Assembly (NCBI GenBank): GCA_900315745.1
Contig: ONAG01000003.1
Span: forward strand, 30,507 to 94,506
Source of the DNA: an uncultured Prevotellaceae bacterium
GTDB taxonomy: Bacteria > Bacteroidota > Bacteroidia > Bacteroidales > Bacteroidaceae
Direction: 5' to 3'
DNA length: 64,000 nucleotides
Part shown: positions 38,851-44,527 of the stretch, piece by piece
How the letters are laid out: the number at the start of each line of letters is the position of its first letter
Position numbering within the stretch: the stretch's first letter is position 1
Made by a program: the position numbers and the translations under genes
The notes under the pieces: model-generated
The model's input: only the letters and a program-made list of their open reading frames with translations
The model's database searches: none
Told to the model about the DNA's origin: nothing

Positions 38851-39189
38851 TCAGAGGAAATCCTGCCTCATTGGACTGAAGGTGTCGATGAGTATGCCCG
38901 CCTCCAAGCATTCGCAACCATGTTCCAAGTCAGGTTCCACATAATATCCGTCGCCAGCTTCAAGAACCTTCTCTTCACCACCAATATTTAGTTTGAACTT
39001 GCCTGAAGCAACGTATGTTGCCTGACTGTGATAATGTGTGTGCGGTGTGCCTACAGCACCTTTTTCAAACTTCACCTTCACCATCATCAATTGTCCATCG
39101 TAAGCCATGATTTGGCGTTGTATTCCTGGAGCAGGATTCTGCCATTCCAGTTGTTTCTCCATCTGGTAGGTCTCGCTTCTTGTCTTCAT
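38851..39189 (-). CDS. kdgF: Cupin, KdgF-like (unsaturated uronate ring-opening)
   Basis: RQIMAYDGQLMMVKVKF, HTHYHSQ, EHG, LIDTFSPMRQDFL; immediately upstream of a pectate lyase. Confidence 0.75.
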   Translation of the reverse strand: MKTRSETYQMEKQLEWQNPAPGIQRQIMAYDGQLMMVKVKFEKGAVGTPHTHYHSQATYVASGKFKLNIGGEEKVLEAGDGYYVEPDLEHGCECLEAGILIDTFSPMRQDFL

Positions 39190-39217
39190 GTTTTCAAATT
39201 ATGTAGGTATTAATATA

Positions 39218-40042
39218 TCAATTATTTCCAAATTGTCCTGAAATGGAGTCCAATGCATTAGGGTCCAATTCAAGCAATTGTTTCATGTCTTCCTCTGCGC
39301 CAGCCTTGTCACCCATGGCAAGTCTTAGTGCACCACGTTCCTTGAAAGCCTCTATGGAGAATGGGTTGTGTTCCACCATCTTGTCGTAAATGGCAAGAGC
39401 TTCAGACTGTTGTCCCTTTGCCACCAACACATTGGCTTTCAACTTCATCACATCCTCCACACCTTCTGCCAGTCCATATAGATAGTCGGCATCTTCAGCC
39501 GCTCCTTCCACATCCCCCATGCCCAACAGCAGTCTGCCACGCTCCAGGTAGGCGTCAGCAAATTGCGGGTTGAGCATTATGCACTTTGTGAACATAGCCA
39601 CGGCATTCACCAAGTCGCCTTGCCCTCGCGAAGCCCTGGCGTACAAGAACATCACCTCGGCATTGTCTTTGTCAATCAGCATCGCCTTTTCGCACATCGC
39701 CGCCATGGCATTGTAATCCTCCATCATGTAGTTCACCCGTATCATCATCAAGATGATATTGATGTTGTCGGGTTGCGCCTCGGCAAGGATGTTTAGTTTT
39801 TCGAGAGCCTCACCCAACTGGTCGTTGCGTATGAGAGCTTGTGACAAATAGTCAAGTGTTTCCAAGTCATCTCTCAGTTCGAGTGCTTTTTTGAAACATT
39901 TCACTGCCATGTCCGCCTTGCCCATTCTCAATGCCTTCACGCCATCTGTCTTCAACACGTCGAAGTCACGTGCTTCTTCTCTCTTTCTTTTTTCCTCAGG
40001 AGACTCTTCCTTGCCTCCAAAAAATGATTTCAGGAATCCCAT
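39218..40042 (-). CDS. Tetratricopeptide repeat protein
   Basis: Serial 34-aa helical repeats with A..Y..RG/LA pattern. Confidence 0.85.
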   Translation of the reverse strand: MGFLKSFFGGKEESPEEKRKREEARDFDVLKTDGVKALRMGKADMAVKCFKKALELRDDLETLDYLSQALIRNDQLGEALEKLNILAEAQPDNINIILMMIRVNYMMEDYNAMAAMCEKAMLIDKDNAEVMFLYARASRGQGDLVNAVAMFTKCIMLNPQFADAYLERGRLLLGMGDVEGAAEDADYLYGLAEGVEDVMKLKANVLVAKGQQSEALAIYDKMVEHNPFSIEAFKERGALRLAMGDKAGAEEDMKQLLELDPNALDSISGQFGNN

Positions 40043-40129
40043 GTATTATCAGTTGTTATGGTAATAGGACAATTACACCTTATAATATTATATAGGGAAT
40101 TGTCACGCACCTTGTTTTCTATGTCCTTG

Positions 40130-40137
40130 CAAAGTTA
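40130..40137 (-). promoter_or_regulatory. -7 promoter box for TPR gene
   Basis: TAACTTTGC on minus strand. Confidence 0.6.
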
Positions 40138-40315
40138 CGAAAAATCGAGAGCAGAACGAAAAAAACAAGATTATTTCTTATGCCGAGACGGAGTAAGTTA
40201 GACTTATTAGCCAAAGATATACGAAAAAATAGGAGCAACTTATCCAAAGAGCCAACAAAATGGCAACAAAAGCCAAAAAAACATCAAAATGTTTTTGCAA
40301 TTTGTAAAAAAGATG

Positions 40316-40323
40316 TAATTTTG
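40316..40323 (+). promoter_or_regulatory. -7 promoter box of aromatic amino acid operon
   Basis: TAATTTTG with TTTG at 40294-40297. Confidence 0.7.
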
Positions 40324-40351
40324 CAATCGAAAGCGATAGAGAAGCTACAAA

Positions 40352-40429
40352 ATGAAAGTTCAGAACGCATACTTTTACTACTATTTTTACTTTGCATGCC
40401 AATGCGAAGCGGGAAGTTGCGTTTTGTAA
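40352..40429 (+). CDS. Tyr/Phe-rich attenuator leader peptide MKVQNAYFYYYFYFACQCEAGSCVL
   Basis: Eight consecutive Tyr/Phe codons; sits between the promoter and a terminator upstream of pheA. Confidence 0.88.
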   Translation: MKVQNAYFYYYFYFACQCEAGSCVL

Positions 40430-40462
40430 ACGAACATAAGAAAGCAATCCAAAAACCATACC

Positions 40463-40495
40463 ATCCCGCTTCAGACAGAGGCGGGATTCTTTTTT
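40463..40495 (+). terminator. Attenuator terminator
   Basis: atcccgcttc / gaggcgggat stem then tctttttt; its 5' arm tcccgcttc is the exact complement of gaagcggga (40406-40414). Confidence 0.88.
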
Positions 40496-40503
40496 AAATA
40501 GAG

Positions 40504-41346
40504 ATGAAGAGAATAGCCATACAAGGGCGCATCGGTTCGTTCCACGACATAGCCGCCCACCTGTATTTCGAGGGAGAGCAAGTGCAACTGGTATGCTGCT
40601 CCACATTCGAGGAGGTATATGACAACATACGCCGCGACCCCACCATCATCGGTCTGACAGCCATTGAGAACACCATCGCGGGAAGTCTGTTGCACAACTA
40701 CGAGCTGCTGCGCGATTCAGGCACCACGGTAGTTGGCGAGCACAAGCTCCACATCCGACACTGCATCTGCTGCCTGCCAGAAGATGATTGGGACAGCATC
40801 GACGAGGTGCATTCCCACCCCGTGGCATTGATGCAATGCCGGCACTATCTCGCCAAGCACCCCGAGCTGAAGGCAGTGGAGACAGAAGACACCGCCGGAG
40901 CTGCAGAAGAGATAATGACAAAGCACCTGCGAGGAAAAGCCGCCATTTGCCATGCCACAGCAGCGAGGCAGCACGGCATGAAAGTGCTGGAAGATTCAAT
41001 AGAAGACAACAAGCACAACTTCACGAGATTCCTCGTCGTTTGCGACCCAAGAAAGGCAGACTTCCTCAGGCCACTTGAGAAATCCAACAAGGCAAGCATA
41101 GTATTCTCGCTGCCACATGAAGAAGGTTCGCTATCGAAAGTGCTAACCATTCTCTCGTTCTACAACATCAACATGACAAAGATACAATCGCTGCCAATCA
41201 TAGGGCACGAATGGGAATACCTATTCTACGTTGATGTCACCTACAACAACCTCACAAGATACAGGCAAAGCATTGACGCCATAATACCACTCACATCAGA
41301 ACTCAAAATATTAGGAGAATACGAAAATGGACGACAGACAAACTGA
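40504..41346 (+). CDS. pheA: Prephenate dehydratase
   Basis: AIENTIAG, SHPVALMQC, NFTRF, C-terminal ACT with NMTKIQSLP and YLFYVD. Confidence 0.95.
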   Translation: MKRIAIQGRIGSFHDIAAHLYFEGEQVQLVCCSTFEEVYDNIRRDPTIIGLTAIENTIAGSLLHNYELLRDSGTTVVGEHKLHIRHCICCLPEDDWDSIDEVHSHPVALMQCRHYLAKHPELKAVETEDTAGAAEEIMTKHLRGKAAICHATAARQHGMKVLEDSIEDNKHNFTRFLVVCDPRKADFLRPLEKSNKASIVFSLPHEEGSLSKVLTILSFYNINMTKIQSLPIIGHEWEYLFYVDVTYNNLTRYRQSIDAIIPLTSELKILGEYENGRQTN

Positions 41347-42505
41347 CATACGCCCGGCAGAACGGCTCAGCCTGGTACAAGAATACTACTTCAGCCGCAA
41401 GCTCAAGGAAGTGGCACGCCTAAATGCCGAAGGGCAGGACATCATCAGTCTTGCCATTGGCAGTCCCGACATGCCCCCATCACCCGCCACCATAGAACGC
41501 CTTTGCGACGTGGCACGACAAGGCGACGCCCACGGCTACCAGCCCACCATGGGCACTCCCGAACTACGAGAGGCGATGTCGCGCTTCTACAAAAGATGGT
41601 ATGGCGTCACCCTCGACCCAGGCAAAGAGGTGTTGCCGTTAATAGGGAGCAAGGAAGGCATATTGCACGTCACATTGGCTTTCGTCAACCCTGGTGACGG
41701 AGTGCTGGTGCCCAACCCGGGATATCCCACATACACATCACTAAGCCGCCTGCTTGGCGCACGCATCATAAACTACAACCTGCGTGAAGACAACGGTTGG
41801 CAACCCGACTTCGACGAATTGGAACAAATGGACCTTGACGGAGTAAAGCTCATGTGGACCAATTACCCCAACATGCCCACTGGTGGCAACGCAAGGATGG
41901 AAACATACGAGCGACTTGTTGACTTCGCAAGGAGGAAAGGCATTGTGGTGGTGAACGACAACCCCTACTCTTTCATTCTCAACGAAAAGCCAATATCACT
42001 GCTGCAAGTGGAAGGAGCAAAGGACTGCTGCATAGAGTTCAACTCGATGAGCAAGAGTCACAACATGCCAGGATGGCGCGTGGGACTGTGCGCCACCAAC
42101 GCAACCTTCATCTCGTGGATATTGAAAGTGAAAAGCAACATCGACAGCGGCACTTTCAGGGGCATACAACTGGCGGCGGCAGCTGCCTACGACAACGACG
42201 AAGCCTGGCACAAGGAAGCCAACATCGCCACATACTCAAGAAGGCGCTCGATAGCAGAAGAGATAATGGATGTCATGGGATGCACCTACGACCCCGCTCA
42301 AGTAGGCATGTTCCTCTGGGGGAAAATCCCCGACAGCTATCCCGATGCAGAGGAACTGACAGAGCGCGTGCTTCACGATGCAAGGGTGTTCATCACCCCC
42401 GGGTTCATCTTCGGTTCCAATGGCAGGAGATATGTACGCATCTCTCTCTGTGCAAAGGAAGAGAAAATGCGCCAGGCACTTGAAAGGATACGCCAGGCGC
42501 TATAG
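41327..42505 (+). CDS. PLP-dependent class I/II aminotransferase
   Basis: LAIGSPD, GSKEG, PNPGYPTY, NYPNMPTG, SMSKSHNMPGWRVG (PLP lysine). Confidence 0.92.
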   Translation: MDDRQTDIRPAERLSLVQEYYFSRKLKEVARLNAEGQDIISLAIGSPDMPPSPATIERLCDVARQGDAHGYQPTMGTPELREAMSRFYKRWYGVTLDPGKEVLPLIGSKEGILHVTLAFVNPGDGVLVPNPGYPTYTSLSRLLGARIINYNLREDNGWQPDFDELEQMDLDGVKLMWTNYPNMPTGGNARMETYERLVDFARRKGIVVVNDNPYSFILNEKPISLLQVEGAKDCCIEFNSMSKSHNMPGWRVGLCATNATFISWILKVKSNIDSGTFRGIQLAAAAAYDNDEAWHKEANIATYSRRRSIAEEIMDVMGCTYDPAQVGMFLWGKIPDSYPDAEELTERVLHDARVFITPGFIFGSNGRRYVRISLCAKEEKMRQALERIRQAL

Positions 42506-42611
42506 GAAGACAGAGGAAGACAGAGGAAGCAATAGGAAATCCTAGGAGGCCATAGGAAGCCCTAGGAAGCCCTAGGAAATCCTAGGAAATTCTAAGAAAT
42601 CCCAGGAAGCC
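42501..42611. repeat. About 11 copies of a 10-nt unit (CCTAGGAAGC family) with CCTAGG palindromes
   Basis: cctaggaggc cataggaagc cctaggaagc cctaggaaat cctaggaaat ... Confidence 0.85.
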
Positions 42612-42660
42612 CCCACGAGACAACCCCATCACGCAAACAAATATAAAAACACAGATATTT

Positions 42661-43728
42661 ATGGAACTTACACTCCAACCATTGAATTTGCCAAGTGACA
42701 ACGAACGCCCCATGGTGATTGCCGGCCCCTGCTCGGCAGAAACAGAGGAGCAAGTGATGACTACCGCCACCCAACTGGCTAAAAAAGGCTGCCACTCTTT
42801 CAGGGCAGGCGCATGGAAGCCACGCACCAAGCCAGGAGGTTTCGAGGGACATGGCGAAAAGGCCATGCCATGGCTCAAACGGGTGAAAGAGGAAACGGGG
42901 ATGCTTGTGGCAGTGGAAGTTGCGACCCCCGAGCACGTGGAGATAGCGCTCAAATACGACATCGACATCTTGTGGATTGGAGCACGCACATCTGCAAACC
43001 CCTTTGCTATGCAAGCCTTGGCAGATTCGATGAAAGGCATCAGCAACCCCGTATTGGTGAAGAACCCCGTCAATCCTGACCTTGAGCTGTGGATAGGTGC
43101 GCTGGAACGCATCAACCAGGCAGGCGTGCAACGCTTGGCAGCGGTTCATAGAGGATTCTCAAGCTACGACAAGAAAATATACCGCAACCTCCCCATGTGG
43201 CAAATACCCATCGAACTGCGCCGTAGGATACCCAACCTGCCCATCTTCTGCGACCCGAGCCACATAGGCGGCAGGCGCGAACTGGTGGCGCCACTCTGCC
43301 AGCAAGCCATGGACTTAGGATTCGACGGACTGCTCGTGGAGTCACACTGCGACCCCGACCAGGCATGGAGCGATGCCAAGCAACAGGTGACGCCCGACAT
43401 CCTCGACTACATCCTATCGCTGCTCGTGATACGCGATGAAAAAATGACCACTGAAGGCATACACGAGCTCAGAGGGCAGATAGACGAGTTAGACAACCAA
43501 CTGATGGAACTGCTTGCAAAGCGAATGAGAGTGTGCAGGGAAATAGGACAATATAAAAAGGAGCACAACATGACTGTGCTGCAACCCACACGATATGGGG
43601 AAATACTCGACAAGCGTGGGGCACAAGGCTCGCTCTGCGGCATGGACTCCGACTTCATCAGAAAGGTGTTCGAGAGCGTGCATGAGGAAAGCGTTAGACA
43701 GCAAATGGAAATAATAAACAAACAATAG
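42661..43728 (+). CDS. Bifunctional DAHP synthase (Ibeta) / chorismate mutase
   Basis: IAGPCSAE, KPRT, IGAR, CDPSH, ESH, SDAKQQ; C-terminal AroQ LRGQIDELD...KRM. Confidence 0.93.
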   Translation: MELTLQPLNLPSDNERPMVIAGPCSAETEEQVMTTATQLAKKGCHSFRAGAWKPRTKPGGFEGHGEKAMPWLKRVKEETGMLVAVEVATPEHVEIALKYDIDILWIGARTSANPFAMQALADSMKGISNPVLVKNPVNPDLELWIGALERINQAGVQRLAAVHRGFSSYDKKIYRNLPMWQIPIELRRRIPNLPIFCDPSHIGGRRELVAPLCQQAMDLGFDGLLVESHCDPDQAWSDAKQQVTPDILDYILSLLVIRDEKMTTEGIHELRGQIDELDNQLMELLAKRMRVCREIGQYKKEHNMTVLQPTRYGEILDKRGAQGSLCGMDSDFIRKVFESVHEESVRQQMEIINKQ

Positions 43729-43738
43729 TCAGCACAAG

Positions 43739-44527
43739 ATGAGAATATTAGTCATGGGAGCAGGCAAGATGGGAAGTTTTTTCCTCGACCTGCTTAGTTT
43801 CGAGCATGAGACGGCAGTATATGAAAAAGACCCGCGCCGCATGAGGTTCACATACAACACGCAACGGTTCACCACAACAAAAGAAATAGAGGAATTCAAG
43901 CCTGAGTTGGTAATCAATGCCGTGACAGTGAAATACACCATTCCTGCATTCGAAGAAGTGCTGCCCTACCTGCCATCCGACTGCATCATCAGCGACATTG
44001 CATCTGTGAAAACCGGGCTGAAGGAGTATTACGACCAATGCAACCACAGATATGTGTCAACACACCCCATGTTCGGCCCCACCTTCGCCAACCTGCAACA
44101 GTTGAGCGAAGAGAATGCCATCATCATCAGCGAGGGCGACTACATGGGCAGGATATTCTTCAAGGACCTGTACCAGCGATTAGGTCTTAACATCTACGAA
44201 TACACATTCGACGAACACGACCGCACCGTGGCATACTCGCTGAGCATACCCTTCGTGAGCACTTTTGTCTTTGCTGCTGTTATGAAGCATCAAGATGCTC
44301 CCGGCACCACCTTCAAGAGACACATGAAGATAGCAAAGGGAGTGTTGACAGAGGACGACTATCTATTGCAAGAGATACTATTCAATCCATACACCCACGA
44401 CCAGGTGTCGCAGATACGCACCGAGTTGAAAGAACTGCTTGAGATTATCGACAAGAAAGACGCCGACGGGATGAAGGGATACCTTGCCAAAATAAGAAAG
44501 AACGTGAAAAGGGACATAGAAGGATGA
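43739..44527 (+). CDS. tyrA: Prephenate dehydrogenase
   Basis: GAGKMG, DIASVK, THPMFGP, EHD. Confidence 0.92.
   Translation: MRILVMGAGKMGSFFLDLLSFEHETAVYEKDPRRMRFTYNTQRFTTTKEIEEFKPELVINAVTVKYTIPAFEEVLPYLPSDCIISDIASVKTGLKEYYDQCNHRYVSTHPMFGPTFANLQQLSEENAIIISEGDYMGRIFFKDLYQRLGLNIYEYTFDEHDRTVAYSLSIPFVSTFVFAAVMKHQDAPGTTFKRHMKIAKGVLTEDDYLLQEILFNPYTHDQVSQIRTELKELLEIIDKKDADGMKGYLAKIRKNVKRDIEG

What the first reader, a model, noticed from the sequence alone, without database searches (positions are those of the whole stretch)
40316..40500. Unannotated Tyr/Phe dual-sensing ribosome attenuator controlling pheA-aminotransferase-DAHP/CM-tyrA
Seen: promoter (40316), then a 25-aa leader MKVQNAYFYYYFYFACQCEAGSCVL with 8 consecutive aromatic codons (5 Tyr, 3 Phe). 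A protector pairing is possible (cagaacgca near 40361 with tgcgttttg near 40418). The antiterminator gaagcggga (40406-40414) is exactly complementary to tcccgcttc (40464-40472), which is the 5' arm of a U-tailed terminator ending 9 nt before pheA. Established: this is classical E. coli pheL/trpL-type attenuation logic. Inference: a mixed Tyr+Phe sensor governing the whole terminal aromatic pathway, which is poorly documented in Bacteroidota. The leader is below the ORF-track size cutoff.
Basis: partly seen in the sequence, partly recalled or inferred. Interest (0 to 1): 0.62.

Follow-up and report, generated by a model that had tools for sequence, protein, structure and literature searches.

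The report
Phe/Tyr leader-peptide attenuator before pheA
A 25-codon mini-gene packed with tyrosine and phenylalanine codons, followed by competing RNA hairpins and a transcription stop signal, sits in front of this rumen Prevotella's Phe/Tyr biosynthesis operon; it is a real and widely conserved but textbook-style attenuator that most likely turns the operon up when either amino acid runs short.

Summary

Comparative evidence makes it a real element:
- A Phe/Tyr-rich leader ORF lies upstream of pheA in 21/21 same-genus, 9/9 other Bacteroidales-family and 31/33 other same-class loci.
- It was found in only 3/34 loci from other classes of the phylum.
- It was found in 77/79 named Prevotellaceae-type records, including Segatella copri.
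- All 61 real leaders carry at least 2 Phe and at least 2 Tyr codons.
- The antiterminator strand tracks each lineage's own terminator arm (-12.8 against -8.8 kcal/mol for cross-pairings).

The operon (pheA, aminotransferase, prephenate dehydrogenase, DAHP synthase/chorismate mutase) is conserved with the leader.

The mechanism is classical ribosome-mediated attenuation with two sensed amino acids. It is in no Rfam family. A homologous element upstream of pheA-aspC3 was already annotated in Flavobacterium psychrophilum (PMC9723704, supplement). This scan has noted the same element 65 times in at least 64 other genomes.

Verdict: a sound new member of a known kind, of modest interest.

The parts
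40294..40323 (+). Bacteroidetes-type promoter: TTTG (-33, 40294-40297) and TAATTTTG (-7 motif TAnnTTTG, 40316-40323). The inferred transcription start is near 40329.
   Evidence: Sequence. TAnnTTTG lies within 70 nt upstream of the leader ATG in 31/53 related loci, against 0/53 shuffled controls, usually about 35 nt before the ATG as here (36 nt). The transcription start is inferred, not measured.
40352..40429 (+). Leader ORF, 25 codons plus stop: MKVQNAYFYYYFYFACQCEAGSCVL*
   Evidence: Translation. Equivalent ORFs occur in relatives. The exact peptide is not in the 15-billion-protein collection, so it was never called as a gene.
40370..40393 (+). Regulatory codons 7-14: TAC TTT TAC TAC TAT TTT TAC TTT (5 Tyr, 3 Phe).
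   Evidence: Across 61 real leaders the median is 4 Phe and 4 Tyr codons, with a minimum of 2 each, and both synonymous codons of each are used. Within the genus, Phe and Tyr swap at the upstream positions and other residues are infrequent.
40358..40376 (+). Region 1: 5' strand of the outer protector helix. It pairs with 40412-40431.
   Evidence: MFE structure. On the genus alignment 82% of cells are paired, against 35-58% when the partner is slid, and 4 pairs have changes on both sides.
40390..40409 (+). Inner hairpin. The last regulatory codons plus GCA (CUUUGCAUG) pair with UGCGAAG, which holds the first 4 nt of the antiterminator strand. It may also act as a pause hairpin.
   Evidence: MFE, -9.3 kcal/mol. 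It is recovered by RNAalifold, with a compensatory closing pair (AU 11, GC 5, UA 2, UG 2).
40406..40414 (+). Region 2 core: antiterminator strand GAAGCGGGA.
   Evidence: It is the exact complement of 40464-40472. In the genus 89% of cells are paired, against 34-51% when slid. Across the class it co-varies with the terminator arm. Third codon positions of GCG GGA are invariant in the genus, which indicates an RNA-level constraint.
40412..40431 (+). 3' strand of the outer protector helix. It overlaps the end of the antiterminator strand and the leader stop codon (40427-40429).
40463..40495 (+). Intrinsic terminator (regions 3 and 4): a 10-bp stem at 40463-40472/40478-40487, a loop at 40473-40477, and a U-tract up to 40495.
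   Evidence: Terminator scan. The hairpin is -16.9 kcal/mol. RNAalifold finds the stem with compensatory changes in 8 pairs of the whole consensus structure. No + strand gene lies upstream for it to terminate.
40504..41346 (+). pheA: prephenate dehydratase with an ACT domain.
   Evidence: Pfam PF00800, E = 1.1e-52.
41327..42505 (+). Class I/II aminotransferase (aromatic/aspartate type).
   Evidence: Pfam PF00155, E = 2.2e-59.
42661..43728 (+). DAHP synthase fused to chorismate mutase.
   Evidence: Pfam PF00793 and PF01817.
43739..44527 (+). Prephenate dehydrogenase (tyrA).
   Evidence: Pfam PF02153, E = 1.4e-10. Orthologous PDH genes sit in the same operon across Bacteroidia.

Best explanation
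This is a ribosome-mediated (leader-peptide) transcription attenuator. It controls the operon pheA - aminotransferase - DAHP synthase/chorismate mutase - tyrA.

Proposed steps (all inferred from sequence and comparison, none measured):
1. Transcription starts near 40329 from a Bacteroidetes-type promoter.
2. A ribosome translates the 25-codon leader.
3. If Phe-tRNA and Tyr-tRNA are plentiful, the ribosome runs on to codons 16-25 or the stop codon. There it covers GAAGCGGGA (40406-40414), or the 1:2 helices re-form behind it. The terminator (40463-40495) then folds and RNA polymerase stops 8 nt before pheA.
4. If either charged tRNA is scarce, the ribosome stalls on the eight interleaved Tyr/Phe codons (40370-40393). 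This melts the protector helices and leaves GAAGCGGGA free to pair with UCCCGCUUC, the terminator's 5' arm, before the 3' arm is made. Polymerase then reads through into the operon.

Because Phe and Tyr codons alternate, the leader acts as an OR gate for the two end products of an operon that makes both. The operon also encodes the pathway's entry enzyme.
For: - Anatomy: every part is present and the fold is far more stable than shuffles.
- Conservation: the leader ORF occurs in 21/21 genus, 9/9 order and 31/33 class loci, against 3/34 from other classes, and in 77/79 named Prevotellaceae-type records.
- Codon-level selection: at least 2 Phe and at least 2 Tyr codons in all 61 real leaders. 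Synonymous usage is mixed (TTT 216, TTC 71, TAC 123, TAT 121). Phe and Tyr swap between species.
- RNA-level selection downstream: wobble positions of GCG GGA are invariant in the genus.
- Antiterminator: each locus's own region 2 against its own terminator arm averages -12.8 kcal/mol. Cross-locus pairs average -8.8 and shuffled region 2 averages -6.5 (permutation p about 1e-4). Lineage-specific matching pairs include TTGGGA/TCCCAA, AACCGGGA/TCTCGGTT, GGCTGGG/CCCAGCC and TCAGGAT/ATCCTGA. Genus pair counts are, and RNAalifold covariation is.
- Geometry: with a 28-nt footprint, an A site at any of codons 2-15 gives the full 9-bp antiterminator in the nascent RNA. An A site at codons 16 to stop gives none.
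- Operon logic: pheA, aminotransferase, PDH and DAHPS/CM are co-linear wherever the leader occurs. Lineages without the leader have pheA alone or a chorismate mutase-prephenate dehydratase fusion.
- Precedent: the F. psychrophilum homologue has a mapped transcription start. Its authors report read-through under specific conditions and highest operon expression in minimal nutrient media.
Against:
- At equilibrium the full-length leader always folds into the terminator, even with a stalled ribosome.
- The untranslated nascent RNA slightly prefers the antiterminator (-28.9 against -26.6 kcal/mol). Both default termination and starvation read-through therefore rest on co-transcriptional kinetics, which were not modelled.
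- Within the genus the 2:3 helix is mostly invariant, so covariation there is weak. The stronger evidence comes from across the class.
- Transcription-translation coupling has not been shown in Bacteroidota (my own knowledge).
Confidence: 0.85

Rival explanations
1. It is an attenuator, but it effectively senses only one amino acid (Phe, as in E. coli pheL). The Tyr codons would be tolerated filler, kept because TTT and TAT differ by one base and both keep the tract U/A-rich and unstructured.
For: Phe and Tyr interchange freely at several positions. The published Flavobacterium annotation labels the element 'phenylalanine biosynthesis'.
Against: No leader among the 61 lacks Tyr or lacks Phe, and the median is 4 of each. 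Other one-step neighbours of TTT/TAT (Ser, Cys, Leu, Asn, His) are infrequent inside the tract. tyrA is in the operon throughout Bacteroidia. Both kinds of codon lie in the window where a stall permits the antiterminator.
Confidence: 0.07
2. The 3:4 hairpin acts mainly on translation of pheA, by occluding the unstructured A-rich start region that Bacteroidota ribosomes need, and not by terminating transcription. Alternatively it acts through Rho.
For: The stem ends only 16 nt before the pheA ATG. At equilibrium the hairpin is favoured even in read-through-length RNA.
Against: The hairpin is followed by a canonical U-tract here and in nearly all relatives. The distance from terminator to pheA varies among relatives (leader stop to pheA ATG 35-176 nt), which argues against a fixed start-site mask.
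Confidence: 0.04
3. The small ORF encodes a functional or arrest peptide. It would be either a hydrophobic FYFYF micropeptide or a nascent chain that senses free Phe/Tyr as TnaC senses Trp, so tRNA charging would not be the signal.
For: FYF is present in 53 of 62 and YFYF in 37 of 62 unique peptides (61 real leaders plus one chance ORF), across deep branches. CEAGSCV is conserved at the C-terminus within the genus.
Against: - Length, flanks and C-terminus are not conserved outside the genus.
- The genus-level CEAGSCV conservation includes wobble bases and coincides with the RNA helices.
- No arrest motif is shared.
- The peptide is absent from protein collections.
Confidence: 0.03
4. It is a chance ORF next to an ordinary terminator, or the real gene here is the overlapping 105-aa (+) or 142-aa (-) ORF.
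For: Both longer ORFs exist in the window.
Against: Neither long ORF stays open in the 20 same-genus loci. No + strand gene lies upstream for the terminator to end. The aromatic leader is conserved across a bacterial class.
Confidence: 0.01

Closest known systems
[quoted passage not shown] 2021, PMC9723704, Table S7 and SI D9)
   Same: - Same phylum and class.
- Same position, upstream of pheA and an aminotransferase.
- A Phe/Tyr(/Trp)-rich short ORF (MNTNNTFYSNNSFYFYWNIGRDCYMVI), a GGGA-containing strand complementary to a UCCCG terminator arm, and a U-tailed terminator.
- No Rfam hit.
- Same-class loci sampled here carry near-identical peptide types, for example MLVTTTFYFNNSFYYFWREIRDCYAIH.
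   Different: - Different order (Bacteroidales/Prevotella here).
- Different leader flanks; CEAGSCV is genus-specific.
- Different gene order: tyrA is last here, whereas most non-Bacteroidales Bacteroidia sampled have pheA-aminotransferase-tyrA-DAHPS/CM.
- The publication labels it a phenylalanine element and does not discuss Tyr sensing.
- That element has transcriptome support; this one has none.
Escherichia coli pheL-pheA attenuator (Rfam Phe_leader RF01859)
   Same: A short leader ORF with a run of regulatory codons, 1:2 / 2:3 / 3:4 alternative helices, and an intrinsic terminator just before pheA. This comparison is from established knowledge.
   Different: - pheL has Phe codons only and controls pheA alone; E. 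coli tyrA is controlled by TyrR.
- There is no sequence or structure homology: no RF01859 match even at E <= 10, and no match at gathering score in 20 loci.
- This element uses a Bacteroidetes promoter and an initiation context without a Shine-Dalgarno sequence.
Multivalent enterobacterial attenuators (thrL with Thr+Ile codons; ilvL with Ile/Leu/Val codons)
   Same: One leader carries codons for more than one amino acid, so shortage of any of them relieves termination. This comparison is from established knowledge.
   Different: The amino-acid pair is different (Phe+Tyr), the codons are strictly interleaved, and the phylum is different.
Bacteroid-trp leader (Rfam RF01692)
   Same: A leader-peptide attenuator family of Bacteroidota amino-acid operons. 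It shows that the mechanism is used in the phylum.
   Different: It has Trp codons and lies upstream of trpE. It was not detected in this genome, although the control genome B. thetaiotaomicron matched.

Membership tests
Classical ribosome-mediated (leader-peptide) transcription attenuator | Short ORF in the 5' leader with clustered codons for the pathway's end product(s). | tested here: met
   The 25-codon ORF has 8 consecutive Tyr/Phe codons. It is conserved in relatives.
Classical ribosome-mediated (leader-peptide) transcription attenuator | Intrinsic terminator between the leader ORF and the first structural gene. | tested here: met
   A 10-bp GC-rich stem plus U-tract at 40463-40495. It is present in relatives. 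This is a sequence-level prediction only.
Classical ribosome-mediated (leader-peptide) transcription attenuator | An antiterminator helix mutually exclusive with the terminator, and a protector helix mutually exclusive with the antiterminator. | tested here: met
   There is an exact 9-nt complement. The antiterminator co-varies with the terminator arm across the class. The inner and outer 1:2 helices overlap region 2.
Classical ribosome-mediated (leader-peptide) transcription attenuator | Geometry: a ribosome stalled on the regulatory codons frees region 2, and a ribosome at the end of the ORF blocks it. | tested here: met
   Footprint-masked folding gives the antiterminator for an A site at codons 2-15 and none for codons 16 to stop. 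Caveat: the equilibrium model does not reproduce default termination without a ribosome.
Classical ribosome-mediated (leader-peptide) transcription attenuator | Termination and read-through respond to the supply of charged tRNA, and the leader is translated. | not testable with these tools
There are no reporter or Term-seq data.
Rfam Phe_leader (RF01859, enterobacterial pheL) | Match to the family covariance model. | tested here: not met
   No RF01859 hit at E <= 10 in 39000-42000. No Rfam family matched at gathering score in 20 related loci.
Bacteroidota pheA Phe/Tyr leader (as annotated in F. psychrophilum, PMC9723704) | An aromatic (F/Y, occasionally W) leader ORF plus a U-tailed terminator directly upstream of a pheA-aminotransferase operon, conserved beyond the species. 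| tested here: met
   There is a continuum of leaders from Prevotella through other Bacteroidales families to Flavobacterium-like peptides.
Riboswitch, T-box or other curated cis-regulatory RNA | Match to a curated RNA family. | tested here: not met
   Only chance-level hits to unrelated eukaryotic or viral families. None at gathering score.

The most novel reading that the evidence does not exclude
The interleaved Phe/Tyr leader may be an ancient RNA family found across the class Bacteroidia and missing from Rfam. It would work as a true two-input OR gate over both exits (pheA, tyrA) and the entry step (DAHP synthase) of the aromatic pathway. Its near-universal retention would imply that ribosomes follow RNA polymerase closely enough for attenuation in a phylum that largely lacks Shine-Dalgarno-guided initiation. 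In some lineages the unit is duplicated in series, which would give a two-stage gate.
Probability: 0.55. Interest if true: 0.4.

Novelty: new member of a known kind. Interest (0 to 1): 0.3.

Why it matters
- It fixes the regulation of Phe/Tyr biosynthesis in Prevotella and relatives, which are dominant rumen and gut bacteria, to a simple testable RNA switch that genome annotation misses.
- It gives a clean example of two-amino-acid sensing by one leader.
- It is indirect evidence that transcription and translation are coupled in Bacteroidota.
- A curated RNA family for it would improve annotation of thousands of genomes.
- It does not reveal a new principle.

Tried and rejected
- Three-state thermodynamic simulation over 53 loci: stalled ribosomes always allowed pairing of the terminator arm. 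The no-ribosome and stop-codon states were not discriminated, because a truncated transcript's MFE pairs the free arm with whatever is available. I report only the specific 2:3 result for the window, with the kinetic caveat.
- My crude terminator finder missed bulged stems (for example L004, L005, L007). RNAfold shows terminators there, so 'orf-only' is not absence.
- Genome-wide scan for other leader peptides: very noisy for Trp, Thr and His. Only the pheA leader and one leuA candidate looked real.
- The search for related loci with a diverse pheA alignment returned only close Prevotellaceae relatives. These were useful for names but not for breadth.
- Literature searches found no description of the Bacteroidales element. 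These were Naville and Gautheret 2010, the B. thetaiotaomicron transcriptome paper and its supplements, and three further searches. Older subscription papers (for example Vitreschak et al. 2004, recalled from memory) could not be checked.
- The overlapping 105-aa and 142-aa ORFs were rejected as genes.
- An Rfam family assignment was rejected.

Full report
**Observation**

- A Bacteroidetes-type promoter: TTTG at 40294-40297 and TAATTTTG at 40316-40323.
- A 25-codon ORF at 40352-40429 encoding MKVQNAYFYYYFYFACQCEAGSCVL. Codons 7-14 are five Tyr and three Phe codons.
- An intrinsic terminator: ATCCCGCTTC-AGACA-GAGGCGGGAT at 40463-40487, then TTCTTTTTT up to 40495.

The RNA from 40340 to 40503 folds at -43.5 kcal/mol, with z = -4.7 against 200 dinucleotide shuffles, none of which is as stable. 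The fold has three elements:
- An outer helix, 40358-40376 paired with 40412-40431.
- An inner hairpin, 40390-40409.
- The terminator.

GAAGCGGGA (40406-40414) is the exact reverse complement of the terminator's 5' arm, TCCCGCTTC (40464-40472). It overlaps both the inner hairpin and the outer helix, so three mutually exclusive pairings exist.

**Downstream genes**

Pfam identifies prephenate dehydratase with an ACT domain, a class I/II aminotransferase, a DAHP synthase-chorismate mutase fusion and prephenate dehydrogenase, all co-oriented. The operon therefore makes both Phe and Tyr and also encodes the entry enzyme of the shikimate pathway.

**Is it more than chance?**

I took pheA loci from related genomes and looked for a short ATG-ORF with an aromatic run within 450 nt upstream.

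| Group | Loci with the leader ORF |
|---|---|
| Same genus, including the window's own locus | 21 of 21 |
| Other families of the order, with enough upstream sequence | 9 of 9 |
| Further loci of the same class | 31 of 33 |
| Other classes of the phylum | 3 of 34, plus one obvious chance ORF |

The three positives from other classes carry the Bacteroidia-type operon. One of the two class-level negatives has pheA immediately downstream of another coding frame, so it looks operon-internal.

A scan of named genomes found the leader in 77 of 79 Prevotellaceae-type records. These include Segatella copri, Segatella paludivivens, Xylanibacter ruminicola, Hoylesella enoeca, Palleniella intestinalis and Prevotellamassilia timonensis.

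In the window's own 4.6-Mb genome this is the only small ORF with 8 of 8 aromatic residues followed by a terminator. The two longer ORFs that overlap the leader in the window (105 aa on the plus strand, 142 aa on the minus strand) are not open in the 20 same-genus relatives.

**What is selected**

- Across the 61 real leaders, every one has at least 2 Phe and at least 2 Tyr codons. The median is 4 of each, and a single Trp codon occurs in about a third.
- Both synonymous codons of each amino acid are used: TTT 216, TTC 71, TAC 123, TAT 121.
- Within the genus, the upstream part of the tract swaps Phe and Tyr between species and varies at wobble positions. Position -4 is only ever Phe or Tyr and position -3 is Tyr in 20 of 21 leaders; Ser, Gly or Arg appear at some positions further upstream.
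- The last three aromatic codons (TTT TAC TTT) and the downstream codons GCG GGA are invariant even at wobble positions. These are exactly the stretches that form the inner hairpin and the antiterminator.

The upstream part of the tract is therefore constrained as 'a Phe or Tyr codon', and the 3' part is constrained as RNA. The genus-specific peptide tail CEAGSCV is a by-product of that RNA constraint.

**Structures**

RNAalifold on the 21 genus sequences recovers the inner hairpin and the terminator. Of 23 predicted pairs, 8 have compensatory changes.

For the helices I named myself:
- The antiterminator is paired in 89% of cells, against 34-51% when the partner is slid by 1-3 columns.
- The outer protector helix is paired in 82% of cells, against 35-58% when slid, and 4 of its pairs change on both sides.

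Within the genus the antiterminator barely varies, so the stronger test is across the class. For 43 non-redundant loci, the duplex between a locus's own post-tract segment and its own terminator 5' arm averages -12.8 kcal/mol. All cross-locus combinations average -8.8, and shuffled segments average -6.5. A permutation of the pairings never reached the observed mean in 10,000 trials.

Lineages with different terminator arms have matching region-2 sequences:

| Region 2 | Terminator arm |
|---|---|
| GAGCGGGA | TCCCGCTC |
| TTGGGA | TCCCAA |
| AACCGGGA | TCTCGGTT |
| GGCTGGG | CCCAGCC |
| TCAGGAT | ATCCTGA |
| ACGAGG | CCTCGT |

Relatedness among loci means the p-value is not exact. The compensatory pattern is nevertheless plain.

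**Mechanism**

I masked a 28-nt ribosome footprint and folded the nascent RNA up to the terminator loop.
- With the A site at any of codons 2-15, which include all eight Tyr/Phe codons, the full 9-bp antiterminator forms.
- With the A site at codon 16 through the stop codon, it cannot form.

Both Phe and Tyr codons therefore sit where a stall is productive, which is the geometry expected for an OR gate.

There are limits to this model.
- At equilibrium the complete leader always prefers the terminator. By my recollection of the published stabilities this is also true of the E. coli trp leader.
- The untranslated nascent RNA slightly prefers the antiterminator, -28.9 against -26.6 kcal/mol.
- A generic version of the simulation over 53 loci could not separate the no-ribosome and stop-codon states.

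The switch must therefore be kinetic. The 1:2 helices fold first, and the ribosome decides whether region 2 is free when region 3 emerges. This step is inferred, not shown.

**Operon association**

Wherever the leader occurs, pheA is followed by the aminotransferase and DAHPS/CM. In most non-Bacteroidales loci sampled, a 280-300-aa gene sits between them. In the four examples tested it is a prephenate dehydrogenase, with PDH_N and PDH_C at E of about 1e-34 and 1e-23.

In the other classes of the phylum, pheA stands alone or is fused to chorismate mutase, and it has no leader.

**Comparison with what is known**

- No Rfam 15 family matches. This holds at E <= 10 around the element and at gathering score in 20 diverse loci. 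The element is therefore not a member of the enterobacterial Phe_leader family, although it works like it.
[quoted passage not shown] It is listed in a supplementary table. Its authors mapped a transcription start and a 5' transcribed region, and report read-through under specific conditions and conservation in other Flavobacteriaceae (PMC9723704).
- I found no description of the Bacteroidales version. The B. thetaiotaomicron transcriptome paper mentions leader-like small ORFs only in general terms. Older subscription papers could not be searched.
- Leaders that carry codons for more than one amino acid are established for thr and ilv in enterobacteria (my knowledge). The Phe+Tyr combination is a variation on that theme.
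- The exact leader peptides are absent from a 15-billion-protein collection, so gene callers do not annotate them.
- This scan has already recorded the same element 65 times in at least 64 other genomes, and earlier follow-ups reached the same conclusion. I reached the Flavobacterium paper independently before reading those notes.

**Verdict**

The element is a well-conserved, unannotated but mechanistically conventional two-amino-acid attenuator. It is a new member of a kind already noted in the same class, and it still lacks direct experimental proof in any Bacteroidales.

Noticed in passing
L036, L058, L096, L029 (upstream of pheA; first leaders about 295-325 nt before the ATG): Four Bacteroidia loci carry two complete Phe/Tyr leader-plus-terminator units in series upstream of pheA. 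Examples of the first leader are MAYRSAYYFYFFCFFSSCRG and MNNTFTNNSFYFFYFFSKG. Each first leader has its own U-tailed hairpin. The window itself has only one unit.
   Followed up: partly
Outside the window: G000 contig C113, 7937-8005 (- strand): MNIGIIIISISILRLQIEDGSD is followed by a GC-rich hairpin with a U-tract. A 499-aa ORF starting MTDRLFIFDTTLRDGEQ (2-isopropylmalate synthase-like) begins 92 nt after the leader stop. This is a candidate Ile/Leu leader attenuator of the leu operon in the same genome.
   Followed up: partly
Whole genome G000: The Bacteroid-trp leader family (RF01692) was not detected in this genome (93% complete), although the control genome B. thetaiotaomicron matched.
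   Followed up: no
window 40504-44527 compared with L091-L118: Gene order differs between lineages. The window and some other Bacteroidales have pheA-aminotransferase-DAHPS/CM-tyrA. Most other Bacteroidia sampled have pheA-aminotransferase-tyrA-DAHPS/CM, with a much more divergent prephenate dehydrogenase (21-28% identity).
   Followed up: partly
L152, L165, L175: Records titled Lachnospiraceae bacterium, Waltera intestinalis and Acutalibacteraceae bacterium carry a Prevotella-type pheA (73-77% identity) with the Prevotella-type leader. They are probably mislabelled or contaminated bins.
   Followed up: no
window 40180-40497 (+) and 40178-40606 (-): ORFs of 105 aa and 142 aa overlap the leader region. 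Neither stays open in the 20 same-genus relatives, so they are chance ORFs that an annotator could miscall.
   Followed up: yes
L059-L089: In the other classes of the phylum, pheA stands alone or is an approximately 380-aa chorismate mutase-prephenate dehydratase fusion (some frames of about 690 aa have DAHPS-like sequence downstream). There is no aromatic leader, so regulation there must differ.
   Followed up: no
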